From Vicinamibacterales bacterium (lineage in GTDB: Bacteria; Acidobacteriota; Vicinamibacteria; Vicinamibacterales; CAVVIG01), in contig CBDANZ010000005.1 of assembly GCA_965197865.1 (NCBI GenBank), forward strand, positions 247,793 to 311,792: a stretch of 64,000 nt of DNA, in the 5' to 3' direction. The notes under the pieces are model-generated. The model was not told the DNA's origin, did not search any database, and saw only the letters and a program-made list of their open reading frames with translations. The first letter of the stretch is position 1. Each line of letters begins with the position of its first letter. The position numbers were made by a program, and so were the translations under genes. Positions 45,533-46,899 of the stretch are shown piece after piece.

Positions 45533-46899
45533 ATATGGACTCCTCCCGGTGATCAAGCGAGTGGGTCGTGACGGTCGGTCCTTCGCGTCGGTTGCGGTCG
45601 TATATCCGGCCTGTCCGTGGAGAGCCTTTGCCTCCTGGCCAACATGGATAGTCACGCACCGCGGGCCAATCGTGGTGCCGGCGTCGAGCGCCAGGGCTGC
45701 TATCGGCCTGATGCGGTGTCGGTCGGACCGAAGGGCCATGTCAGGGTCACTCGCTCAGCATCTCGCGTGGAGGTGTAGCTCGGGTTACGCCGCGTCCGGC
45801 AGTGCGCAGGGCACATCCTTGTGCCAAACCGCCCAAACGAGTCGGCCGAGTTTGTTCGCCACGGCAATCGTGGCTTTGTTGTAGCCGCGCCGCGCGTGCA
45901 CCGTCATCGCCCAGTGGTGCAGACGCGTGAGGGGCTGCTGGGCCGCCCGGCGCCGGTGGGCCGACGCGAGCACCGCGCGCGCGCCGTGGGTGAGCAAGCA
46001 CCGGAGATACACGTCCCCGCGTTTACTGATCCCCCCGAGGCGCCGCCGCTGCCCACTCGAGTACTCGCGCGGCGTCAGGCCGAGCCAGCTGGCAAACTGG
46101 CGCGCGCGCCGGAATGCGTGGATGTGCCCGACGGTGCCGACGAGGGCCGTGGCGGTCAACAGCCCAATCCCGGGAATCGTCCGCAGTCGCATCACGACGG
46201 GGTCGGCGTCGGCCAGGGCGCAATTCCCGTTCCAGGCCGGCAATCCGAGCCTCAATCGCCCGCACTTCCTCGTGGACGCTCGTGAGCACCTGCCGCAGAT
46301 GCCTCGGCAACACGGTGGCCGCCTCGTCGAGCAGCACAGGCAAGGCCCGCAGCGCCGCACAGGCCCCCGCCGGCAGCAGCAGCCCCTGTTCCCGCAAGAG
46401 CCCGCGTAACACATTGATGCGCGCCGTCCGCGTCGTCATCCACTGCTCGCGCACCCGGTGCAGCGCCACGAGCGCTTGCTGCTCGACCCGCTTCACCGGG
46501 ACACGGGGTATCTCGCCCGACCGGATCGCCTCCGCATCCGCCCGGTCCGTCTTGTTGCGCCGCACGTAGGGCCGCACGTACGCCGGGGGCACGAGGGTGA
46601 CGCGATGGCCGTGTTGCTGGGCAACCCGCCCCCAGTAGTGGGCGGTGCCACACGCCTCCATCACCACATGGGTCGGCGGCGTCTGCGCGAGAAAGCGGGC
46701 GAACCGTGCGCGGTTGAGTCGCTGGCGCGACCACACGCGCCACCGGGCATTGGCGATCGCCAGCTCGAACACGGACTTTGCCAGGTCAACGGCCACTGTC
46801 GTAGCATCCATTTCGGTTTCCTCCTGGTTGTGGCTGATGGGCATCAGCTGATGCGGCACATCATGCCGCATCGGAACCGGGAGGAGTCCATACCATCAT
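45533..46899 (-). mobile_element. IS110-family (IS1111-like layout) insertion sequence, 1367 bp
   Basis: 17-bp subterminal inverted repeats TATGGACTCCTCCCGGT (45534-45550 and complement at 46876-46892). DEDD recombinase gene. 88-nt 5' leader and 252-nt 3' noncoding segment. Inserted between CGT and GG of the MITE terminal repeat. Confidence 0.8.
45785..46811 (-). pseudogene. IS110-family transposase (DEDD_Tnp_IS110 + Transposase_20), frameshifted
   Basis: ATG 46811 after GGAGGA. MDATTVAVDLAKSVFELAI..VVMEACGTAHYW.. to ..IAGLERELR, then the frame changes near 46210 to ALADADPVVMRLRTIPGIGLLTATALV..FASWLGLTPREYSSG.. Confidence 0.8.

What the first reader, a model, noticed from the sequence alone, without database searches (positions are those of the whole stretch)
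45533..45784. Candidate guide (bridge/seek-type) RNA region of the IS110-family element, with short matches to its own target
Established: IS110/IS1111-family DEDD recombinases are programmed by an element-encoded structured noncoding RNA whose loops pair with target and donor DNA. IS1111-type members carry subterminal inverted repeats and a long noncoding segment 3' of the recombinase gene. Seen: this element has exactly that layout, with an 88-nt leader, 252 nt of noncoding DNA after the stop at 45785, and 17-bp subterminal repeats. It sits precisely inside the terminal hairpin of a MITE, between CAGTCCGT and GGTGAAAGTC. The 252-nt segment contains GTCCGTGG (45613-45620) and CGTGGTG (45671-45677). 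Both are identical to the target sequence spanning the insertion point. Inference: these may be the two target-guide segments, and the MITE family may be the natural landing pad. The matches are short. I estimate chance at the several-percent level, so this is suggestive only. The recombinase itself is frameshifted near 46210.
Basis: partly seen in the sequence, partly recalled or inferred. Interest (0 to 1): 0.65.

Follow-up and report, generated by a model that had tools for sequence, protein, structure and literature searches.

The report
IS1111-type bridge (seek) RNA, guides re-assigned

Summary
Every sequence fact in the finding checks out: element ends, 17-bp subterminal repeats, 252-nt 3' non-coding region, both k-mers, precise insertion in a 166-bp MITE, and a broken transposase gene.

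The k-mers alone are weak evidence (P about 0.08 in shuffles). Comparison with about 110 related loci settles the question.

A 142-nt RNA (45592-45733, minus strand) has the two-module bridge/seek RNA architecture. A covariance model built only from relatives with other targets hits it at 108.8 bits (E about 1e-24).

Its loops co-vary with the flanking DNA across at least 7 target groups:
- Donor guides: 45644-45647 and 45598-45605.
It lies in a hairpin stem plus a joiner that varies freely among same-target relatives.

The landing pad is the terminal inverted repeat of an IS1182/IS5-like element (a copy lies at 59941-61429) and its MITE derivatives.

The window copy is decayed: a 12-nt and a 2-nt deletion in the transposase gene, with the RNA intact.

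Verdict: a new member of a known kind, of modest interest.

The parts
45532..46898 (-). IS1111-group (IS110 family) insertion sequence, 1367 bp.
   Evidence: Conserved subterminal repeat core ATGGACTCC with a 7-bp left extension (TGATGGT) and a 3-bp right extension (ATA). The MITE is restored exactly when the element is removed.
45785..46811 (-). Transposase pseudogene (DEDD/RuvC-like N-terminal domain plus Transposase_20 C-terminal domain with the GLTPREYSSG motif). It has a 2-nt deletion near 46222 (frameshift) and a 12-nt in-frame deletion near 46533.
   Evidence: Pfam; NCBIfam NF033542 at 296.6 bits against a cut-off of 140, on the repaired protein; IS621 transposase 8wt6 at E 9.5e-14; comparison with the intact copy L001.
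46876..46892 (.). Left-end subterminal inverted repeat.
   Evidence: pair I2: 17 nt, 100% complementary.
45534..45550 (.). Right-end subterminal inverted repeat.
   Evidence: pair I2.
45592..45733 (-). Bridge/seek RNA scaffold, 142 nt: hairpin P0, a target-binding module (P1, P2, loop, P3) and a donor-binding module (P4, loop, P5, P6).
   Evidence: Covariance model R1, built only from relatives with other targets, scores 108.8 bits (E 9e-25), matches full length, and gives the only significant hit in the 64 kb. Consensus structure and covariation.
45694..45702 (-). Right target guide (RNA UAGCAGCCC). [quoted passage not shown] It has one mismatch to this window's MITE (GGACTGCTA).
   Evidence: A guide at the homologous loop position co-varies with the right flank in every target group.
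45671..45677 (-). Left target guide (RNA CACCACG = left target half CACCA plus core CG). It pairs with the bottom strand.
   Evidence: It is unpaired in a 7x7 internal loop in the minimum-energy and consensus folds.
45679..45693 (-). P3 hairpin capping the target-binding loop.
   Evidence: The stem is kept with different sequences in relatives: GGCG/CGCC, GACC/GGUC, GAUC/GAUC, GAUGU/ACAUC.
45644..45647 (-). Right donor guide core (RNA CCAU), which pairs with ATGG of the left-end extension. The surrounding loop 45643-45650 pairs discontinuously.
   Evidence: The homologous position gives CCAUCAU, UCCAUC, UACAG or GUCAG in relatives, each matching that element's own left end.
45598..45605 (-). 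Left donor guide (RNA AUAUACGA = right-end ATATA, core CG, then A).
   Evidence: It co-varies with the element ends: ATATATGA, ATATAGG, ATATG (right end ATG), ATACA (right end ACA).
45612..45635 (-). P6 apical hairpin (45619-45635) plus a single-stranded joiner ACGGACA (45612-45618).
45551..45556 (-). Putative -35 box (TTGATC) of the promoter formed when the ends join in a circle: 17-nt spacer (the right-end repeat), then -10 TATGAT spanning right end TA and left end TGAT (46895-46898).
   Evidence: The arrangement is conserved in relatives (TTGACA, 17 nt, TAxGAT). No promoter-like site on the minus strand of the linear element. Function is inferred from ISEc11 (PMC11187229).
46899..47053 (.). 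Larger part of the interrupted 166-bp MITE. The other 11 bp are at 45521-45531.
49047..49212 (.). Intact second MITE copy. Both of its ends are unoccupied target sites.
59941..61429 (-). IS1182/IS5-like element. Its left terminal repeat (61408-61429) carries the target motif GACTTTCACCA-CG-GGCTGTTAG. This element family is the parent of the MITE ends.
   Evidence: Pfam DUF772 and DDE_Tnp_1. The best NCBIfam hit is IS1182, below its cut-off. Terminal repeats read directly from the sequence.

Best explanation
The element is an IS1111-group member of the IS110 family. Its 3' non-coding region encodes a bridge (seek) RNA of about 142 nt on the transposase strand.

The RNA has two stem / internal-loop / hairpin modules:
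- The 5' module binds the target. [quoted passage not shown] - The 3' module binds the element's own joined ends. CCAU pairs with the left end, and AUAUA-CG-A with the right end plus core.

The DEDD recombinase, loaded with this RNA, would insert the excised circular element between CACCA and CG of ...CTTTCACCA^CGGGCTGCTAG. That sequence is the terminal inverted repeat of an IS1182/IS5-like transposon family and of its MITE derivatives.

Expression is inferred to come from a promoter assembled at the circle junction, followed by read-through of the transposase gene.

What is shown here: the sequence, the conserved structure, and the co-variation of the loops with targets and donors. What is inferred from the characterised relatives ISEc11, ISKpn4, ISPa11 and IS621: transcription, RNA-protein assembly, circle formation and recombination.

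The window copy has a broken transposase gene, so at best it moves with a recombinase supplied by another copy.
For: 1. Family membership. Pfam and NCBIfam hits; subterminal repeats with 7/3 extensions; long 3' non-coding region; no target duplication.

2. Target guides. In every subgroup with a different target, guide-like matches sit at homologous positions of the 3' non-coding region. About 163-174 nt from the right end there is a 7-9 nt reverse complement of the right flank: TAGCAGCCC, CTAACGCCG, GAACTGCGC, TAACAAT, ATAACAAGT, CTGAACTTG, TAACATTTG, TTTCCTTGC. About 25 nt downstream of that there is a copy of the left flank plus core: CACCACG, TTGAACGC, CGCTCGC, TTCCTGG.

3. Permutation test. 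Over 7 independent target groups, only the true guide-to-flank assignment reaches the observed score, 1 of 5040 permutations.

4. Natural retargeting in metagenomes. L103 has guide UAGCAGUCC with flank GGACTGCTA. L080 has UCACAGUC with flank GACTGTGA. L092 has UAGCAGG with flank CCTGCTA.

5. Donor guides co-vary with the element ends.

6. Structure. RNAalifold gives the two-module fold. On 75 distinct sequences, 94.7% of pair cells are standard pairs and 19 of 27 pairs show two-sided changes. No shuffle out of 500 reaches this, and slid controls give 22-44%. On the alignment that was not fitted to the model, 89.7% of cells pair and 10 pairs are compensated.

7. Independent covariance model. 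A model that excludes all same-target relatives hits 45592-45733 at 108.8 bits with all pairs standard.

8. Guide order. The guide that matches the top strand lies 5' of the one that matches the bottom strand, as reported for IS1111-type seekRNAs (PMC11187229).

9. A junction promoter motif is conserved.
Against: - There are no expression data.
- The single-sequence fold is no more stable than shuffles (z = -0.97 and -1.89).
- Rfam 15 gives no hit, even at E up to 10, and the published bridge-RNA models could not be run.
- The right donor guide pairing is short and discontinuous in this lineage (4 nt).
- The first base of the window's left end is T, whereas its own left donor and left target guides specify C.
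- The right target guide has one mismatch to the window's target.
- The transposase gene is disrupted, so this copy's RNA may no longer be used.
- The larger covariation count was made on a model-fitted alignment, which leans towards the structure.
Confidence: 0.9

Rival explanations
1. One reading: GTCCGTGG (45613-45620) and CGTGGTG (45671-45677) are the two target-guide segments.
For: Both are exact copies of the sequence that spans the insertion point. Six of the eight bases of the first lie in an unpaired joiner.
Against: - Both have the same sense, whereas the family uses one guide per DNA strand.
- Six of the 8 bases (CC-AC--AC) are lineage-constant scaffold.
- The two variable bases take at least 9 different values among copies with the same target.
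- They do not follow the GGGCTG/GGACTG target variants. L001 and L079 have ACGGACA in GGGCTG sites, while L091 and L103 sit in GGACTG sites without it.
- An 8-mer match arises in 12% of shuffles.
- A different segment, UAGCAGCCC, occupies the co-varying loop position.
Confidence: 0.03
2. The conserved 3' region is only a protein-binding end or a transcription or stability element (3' UTR structure) with no guide role. On this view, target specificity resides in the transposase.
For: The scaffold stems P2 and P5 (GGCC) are nearly invariant, and the single-sequence folding energy is unremarkable.
Against: - The loop strands change in step with the flanks while the scaffold stays constant, including single-base retargeting (L103).
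- Transposases 70-80% identical go with different targets whenever the loops differ.
- Experiments on relatives show that the RNA is required and reprogrammable (PMC11187229, PMC11208160).
Confidence: 0.03
3. Fossil reading: the RNA gene is correctly identified, but this copy is an immobile relic and its RNA is no longer made or used in this genome.
For: There are two deletions in the transposase gene. The first base of the left end mismatches the copy's own guides. No second copy or other covariance-model hit occurs in the 64-kb window.
Against: - The RNA differs from the intact copy L001 at only two positions. Both are C to U changes that keep G-U pairs.
- The guides are identical to those of active-looking relatives.
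- The same T at the left end occurs in copies with intact genes (L001) and improves the junction -10 box.
- The rest of the genome is unseen and could supply the recombinase in trans.
Confidence: 0.45

Closest known systems
IS1111-group seekRNA / bridge RNA systems (ISEc11, ISPa11, ISKpn4/ISPst6; Siddiquee et al. 2024, PMC11187229; IS1111 predictions in Durrant et al. 2024, PMC11208160)
   Same: - DEDD recombinase with the GL-P----SG motif.
- Subterminal inverted repeats with 7-bp left and 3-bp right extensions.
- RNA encoded 3' of the transposase gene.
- The guide that matches the top strand lies 5' of the guide that matches the bottom strand.
- No target duplication.
- Promoter formed at the circle junction.
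- Module sizes (about 85 nt for the target module, about 142 nt for both) resemble the reported 82-96 nt and 154 nt RNAs.
- The Pseudomonas relatives recovered here (about 50% protein identity) sit next to ...GTTGTTAGGC. From my own knowledge, and not tested here, this looks like the attC-targeting IS1111 group.
   Different: - A new lineage from Vicinamibacterales/Acidobacteriota soil genomes.
- A new target: the terminal repeat of an IS1182/IS5-like element and its MITEs.
- Nothing is shown experimentally.
- The core appears to be CG. The right target guide covers only its second base.
IS621 bridge RNA (IS110 group; PMC11208160, PMC11208158)
   Same: - Two internal loops, one for the target and one for the donor.
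- Each loop has a left guide that copies the top strand including the core, and a right guide complementary to the top strand.
- Short, discontinuous right donor guide.
- Related recombinase (8wt6, E 9.5e-14 over the C-terminal domain).
   Different: - The RNA is in the right end, downstream of the gene, not in the left end.
- The guide order within each loop is reversed.
- The subterminal repeats are long.
- The core is CG rather than CT.
- Handshake-guide positions were not identifiable here.
[quoted passage not shown]
   Same: An IS1111-group element that homes to a fixed position inside the terminal inverted repeat of another transposable element.
   Different: The host element is an IS1182/IS5-like insertion sequence and its MITEs, not a Tn3-family transposon. 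The phylum also differs. I could not read the 2003 paper here, so the comparison rests on its title and on citations of it.

Membership tests
IS110 family, IS1111 group (element) | DEDD/RuvC-like N-terminal domain plus C-terminal Transposase_20 domain with the GL-P----S/TG motif | tested here: met
   PF01548 at E 6.6e-11 and PF02371 at E 3.3e-26. NF033542 'IS110 family RNA-guided transposase' at 296.6 bits against a cut-off of 140, on the frame-repaired protein. The motif WLGLTPREYSSG is read directly and aligns to the IS621 serine region. The gene itself is disrupted.
IS110 family, IS1111 group (element) | Subterminal inverted repeats (11-17 bp) with asymmetric terminal extensions of 7 bp (left) and 3 bp (right) | tested here: met
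   A 17-bp perfect repeat. With the family-conserved core ATGGACTCC the extensions are TGATGGT and ATA in the window and in about 50 relatives. The rule is quoted in PMC11187229.
IS110 family, IS1111 group (element) | Long non-coding region downstream of the transposase gene, short leader upstream | tested here: met
   252 nt downstream against 88 nt upstream.
IS110 family, IS1111 group (element) | Site-specific insertion without target-site duplication | tested here: met
   Removing the element restores the 22-bp MITE terminal repeat exactly; only one base is ambiguous. The same site is used in 24 of 26 lineage copies with a recovered right flank, allowing one mismatch.
IS110 family, IS1111 group (element) | Circular intermediate with a promoter formed at the joined ends | not testable with these tools
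   Only the motif can be seen: TTGATC, 17 nt, TATGAT across the virtual junction, conserved in relatives.
Bridge / seek RNA | Conserved structured RNA with two stem / internal-loop modules | tested here: met
   RNAalifold consensus. Pair counts of 89.7% and 94.7%, with 10 and 19 compensated pairs and 0 of 500 shuffles reaching these values. P3 and P6 hairpins are kept with different sequences. Custom covariance model hit at 108.8 bits.
Bridge / seek RNA | Loop strands complementary to both strands of the target and co-varying with it | tested here: met
   Permutation test 1 of 5040. In the window, 8 of 9 plus 7 of 7 positions match its own target.
Bridge / seek RNA | A second loop complementary to the element's joined ends (donor) and sharing the core | tested here: met
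   The left donor guide AUAUA-CG-A co-varies with the right-end and core variants. The right donor guide is short. The window's own left end has T where the guide has C.
Bridge / seek RNA | Match to a curated or published covariance model | tested here: not met
   Rfam 15 gives no hit at E up to 10 over 45300-47200. Whether Rfam holds such a family is unknown to me. The published IS110/IS1111 models were not available.
Bridge / seek RNA | The RNA is transcribed, binds the recombinase and is required for transposition | not testable with these tools
   Inferred from ISEc11, ISKpn4, ISPa11 and IS621 experiments (PMC11187229, PMC11208160).

The most novel reading that the evidence does not exclude
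The lineage may be a dedicated parasite of another transposon family. Its RNA is programmed to the functional terminal repeat of IS1182/IS5-like elements and their MITEs, and it splits that repeat 11 bp from the tip. Decayed copies such as this one may keep an intact, selectable guide RNA. That RNA could still load recombinase made by other copies, which would make this copy an RNA-only, non-autonomous bridge element. The recurrent C to T change at the first base of the left end may be selected because it turns the junction -10 box from TACGAT into TATGAT, at the cost of a core mismatch with the element's own guides.
Probability: 0.2. Interest if true: 0.45.

Novelty: new member of a known kind. 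Interest (0 to 1): 0.27.

Why it matters
The result adds a well-resolved natural example of RNA-guided recombination from an under-studied soil phylum.

- The lineage and its relatives show at least 7 naturally reprogrammed target groups, including a single-base guide/target switch.
- Several insertions sit in sites with one guide mismatch.
- The CG core is variably covered by the guides.

These data are useful for rules on guide length, mismatch tolerance and core choice in IS1111-type systems, which are less characterised than IS621.

Biologically, it shows an insertion sequence homing into the ends of another insertion sequence and its MITEs. This parallels IS4321/IS5075 in Tn21 ends.

It does not reveal a new mechanism.

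Tried and rejected
- Rfam 15 scan of 45300-47200 at E up to 10: only noise hits (mir-9214, SECIS_3, RsmV).
- Single-sequence folding of the 252-nt and 142-nt regions: not more stable than shuffles, so thermodynamics alone is uninformative in this GC-rich DNA.
- Handshake-guide role for the joiner ACGGACA: no co-variation with target or donor in any group.
- Programmed frameshift in the transposase gene: rejected, because the 98%-identical L001 has one intact frame and the window simply lacks 2 nt.
- MITE as the only landing pad: rejected. Five of the 8 genome copies lack the MITE partner repeat. Two of them, L015 and L064, sit in the ends of IS1182/IS5-like elements.
- Second copy of the element or an orphan RNA in the window: none found.
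- Fixed-register scoring of the right target guide under-scores group B (L004-L013). There the guide abuts P3 two bases earlier. This is a register difference, not a failure.
- Partridge and Hall 2003 could not be retrieved.
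Full report
**1. Checking the observation**

The region was read directly.

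- An IS110-family transposase lies on the minus strand. It is split between two frames: PF01548 (DEDD_Tnp_IS110) in one and PF02371 (Transposase_20) in the other.
- The stop codon is at 45785-45787. There are 252 nt of non-coding DNA downstream (45533-45784) and 88 nt upstream of the ATG at 46811.
- Perfect 17-bp inverted repeats lie at 45534-45550 and 46876-46892.
- The element interrupts the 22-bp terminal repeat CTAGCAGTCCGT|GGTGAAAGTC of a 166-bp MITE. The MITE's other end (47032-47053), a second intact copy (49047-49212) and one further end (61408-61429) carry the uninterrupted sequence.

As evidence on their own, the k-mers are weak. In 5000 dinucleotide shuffles of the 252 nt, an 8-mer match to the 22-bp target appears in 12%, and two separate matches of at least 7 nt in 7.8%. 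Both k-mers also have the same sense. In this family the two target guides pair with opposite DNA strands (PMC11187229; PMC11208160).

**2. Related loci**

A frame-repaired protein retrieved 79 loci from genome assemblies: Vicinamibacterales and other Acidobacteriota, Pseudomonas, Rhodobacterales, Pseudoalteromonas. A 24-nt DNA pattern retrieved 33 more from soil metagenomes.

About 50 loci share the repeat core ATGGACTCC...GGAGTCCAT, with 7 bp beyond it on the left and ATA on the right. This is the canonical IS1111-group layout. With the shared junction base assigned to the right end, the window element is 45532-46898.

The loci fall into groups with different flanks. At least 7 of these groups have independent targets.

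**3. The guides**

For each locus I searched the last 300 nt for exact matches to its own flanks and to its own joined ends. Four match classes recur at homologous positions in all groups.

1. About 163-174 nt from the right end: a 7-9 nt reverse complement of the right flank.
   - Window lineage: TAGCAGCCC against CGGGCTGCTA.
   - Other groups: CTAACGCCG, GAACTGCGC, TAACAAT, ATAACAAGT, CTGAACTTG, TAACATTTG, TTTCCTTGC.
2. About 25 nt further on: a copy of the left flank plus the first two bases to the right of the insertion point (CACCA-CG, TTGAA-CG, CGCT-CG, TTCCT-GG).
3. About 109-117 nt from the end: a short reverse complement of the left-end extension (CCATCAT, TCCATC, TACAG, GTCAG; only CCAT in the window lineage).
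4. About 68-76 nt from the end: a copy of the right end plus core. Variants are ATATA-CG-A, ATATA-TG-A, ATATA-GG, ATATG where the right end is ATG, and ATACA where it is ACA.

In the aligned table the loop columns change with the flanks while the scaffold stays fixed.

Two tests support this:
- A permutation test over 7 independent groups. Only the true assignment of guides to flanks reaches the observed score, 1 of 5040 permutations.
- The metagenome copies add natural retargeting. L103 has UAGCAGUCC with flank GGACTGCTA. L080 has UCACAGUC with GACTGTGA. L092 has UAGCAGG with CCTGCTA.

In Durrant et al.'s terms the four classes are, in 5'-to-3' order, the right target, left target, right donor and left donor guides. 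A two-base core (CG here) is shared by target and donor. The order within each loop is the reverse of IS621, as Siddiquee et al. report for IS1111-type elements (abstract).

**4. The structure**

RNAalifold on 34 non-redundant segments gives two modules.

- Target module: P1 and P2, an internal loop holding the two target guides, capped by hairpin P3.
- Donor module: P4 and P5, an internal loop holding the two donor guides, capped by hairpin P6.

P3 and P6 keep their pairing with quite different sequences in different groups.

Pair counts:
- On a MAFFT alignment of 26 sequences that excludes the window lineage, 89.7% of pair cells are standard pairs and 10 of 27 pairs show two-sided changes. 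No shuffle of 500 reaches these values, and slid controls pair at 26-45%.
- After realignment of 82 hits to the model, the figures are 94.7% and 19 of 27. That alignment leans towards the structure.

A covariance model built only from relatives with other targets hits the window once, at 45592-45733 on the minus strand. The score is 108.8 bits (E about 9e-25), the match is full length, and every pair is standard. The published models and Rfam could not supply it: Rfam 15 gave no hit.

The single-sequence folding energy is not unusual (z = -0.97). The case for the structure is therefore comparative.

**5. Window coordinates**

| Feature | RNA sequence | Coordinates |
|---|---|---|
| Right target guide | UAGCAGCCC | 45694-45702 |
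| P3 hairpin | | 45679-45693 |
| Left target guide | CACCACG | 45671-45677 |
| Right donor guide core | CCAU | 45644-45647 |
| P6 hairpin | | 45619-45635 |
| Joiner | ACGGACA | 45612-45618 |
| Left donor guide | AUAUACGA | 45598-45605 |

It is unpaired in a 7x7 internal loop even in the minimum-energy fold.

It consists of the last two bases of the P6 stem plus the joiner.
- Among 28 copies of this lineage the joiner reads A-N-N-N-ACA. Its two central bases take at least 9 different values while the target stays the same.
- Copies in GGACTG-type targets (L091, L103) lack ACGGACA. L001 and L079, which have it, sit in GGGCTG-type targets.

**6. The landing pad**

The target ...CTTTCACCA^CGGGCTGCTAG is the terminal inverted repeat of an IS1182/IS5-like element.

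- The window holds such an element at 59941-61429. It has a 474-aa DUF772 plus DDE_Tnp_1 transposase. The best NCBIfam hit is IS1182, below its cut-off.
- Its left repeat is at 61408-61429. A degenerate right repeat (16 of 22 bases) is at 59941-59962.
- The 166-bp MITEs carry the same ends.

Of the 8 genome copies of the window lineage:
- three sit in MITEs (window, L003, L052);
- L015 and L064 sit in the ends of IS1182/IS5-like elements;
- L014 has upstream sequence similar to the window's left-repeat region.

The right target guide has one mismatch (C opposite A) to the window's GGACTG-type MITE end. The same pairing of guide and site recurs in L091 and, judging by its flank, in L089. It is therefore probably tolerated.

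**7. State of the window copy**

- Relative to L001 (98% identical, single intact frame), the window lacks 12 nt near 46533 and 2 nt near 46222. The transposase is a pseudogene unless both are assembly errors.
- The RNA differs from L001 at two positions (45654, 45623). Both are C to U changes that keep G-U pairs.
- The first base of the left end is T, as in L001, L003 and several metagenome copies, whereas the guides specify C.
- In the virtual circle junction this T gives TTGATC, 17 nt, TATGAT instead of TACGAT. A -35 box just upstream of the right repeat and a -10 box spanning the junction are conserved across groups.
- No sigma-70-like site lies on the minus strand of the linear element. 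This fits expression from a junction promoter as in ISEc11, but it is an inference.

**8. Comparison and verdict**

All testable defining features of an IS1111-group element and of a bridge/seek RNA are met. Expression, RNA-protein binding and recombination cannot be tested here.

The system is the same kind as ISEc11, ISPa11 and ISKpn4 (seekRNA) and as the IS1111 predictions of Durrant et al. It is new in lineage (Acidobacteriota) and in target (IS1182/IS5-like ends and MITEs). The closest behavioural parallel is IS4321/IS5075 in Tn21 ends.

- Novelty: a new member of a known kind.
- Interest: modest. The main value is as a clean natural data set on guide reprogramming, mismatch tolerance and core usage.

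Noticed in passing
window 59941-61429: An IS1182/IS5-like insertion sequence: 474-aa DUF772 plus DDE_Tnp_1 transposase on the minus strand, and imperfect 22-bp terminal repeats. Its ends are the same sequence as the MITE ends, so it is the likely parent of the MITE family.
   Followed up: partly
window 49047-49068, 49191-49212, 61408-61429: Three unoccupied copies of the target motif. Each has 1-2 mismatches to the right target guide (GGACTGCTA, GGACTGATA, GGGCTGTTA), so they are potential further insertion sites in this genome.
   Followed up: partly
window 46898; also L001, L003, L085, L091, L103, L106: The first base of the left end is T (TGATGG), although the elements' own left donor and left target guides specify C (CG core). 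Other copies have C, or G in L014 and L083. The T turns the junction -10 box from TACGAT into TATGAT. Whether this reflects selection, CpG deamination or resolution of a mismatched core is open.
   Followed up: partly
L038 (Pseudomonas taeanensis), element about 2916-4292: This copy appears to lie inverted relative to its target. When reverse-complemented, its flanks read ...gatttgaa / gttaggc, like those of the other Pseudomonas copies. The crossover seems shifted, with CT at both junctions. A second covariance-model hit on the opposite strand lies at 5352-5489.
   Followed up: no
L005 and L008, about 4348-4405: The right-end terminus (GAGGAGTCCATATAG) is present twice, 40 nt apart.
   Followed up: no
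L004-L013 (group B), L011/L012: These elements carry 86-153 nt of extra sequence between the bridge RNA and the right repeat. In the L004-L010 group the second core position disagrees among the left target guide (GU), the left donor guide (GG), the left end (GA) and the targets (GC or GG). Only the first core base seems to be enforced.
   Followed up: no
L029 (2058-2194, 4101-4237, 6008-6144); L045 2218-2358; L048 1064-1217; L035 1539-1669; L053 6023-6160: There are extra covariance-model hits in Pseudomonas loci. L029 has three RNA copies about 1.9-2.0 kb apart (tandem elements). Some lower-scoring hits lie upstream of the main element and could be remnants or orphan RNA genes.
   Followed up: no
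repaired transposase, residues 117-260: A weak NCBIfam hit to NF052498 'TIGR-Tas system RNA-guided endonuclease' (26.5 bits, cut-off 100, E 5.7e-6) falls over the coiled-coil and linker region. It is far below the cut-off and is probably compositional or coiled-coil similarity.
   Followed up: no
Pseudomonas loci L025-L053: The right flanks end in GTTGTTAGGC-type sequence. From memory this resembles the core site of integron attC sites, which would make these members of the attC-targeting IS1111 group. I did not verify it.
   Followed up: no
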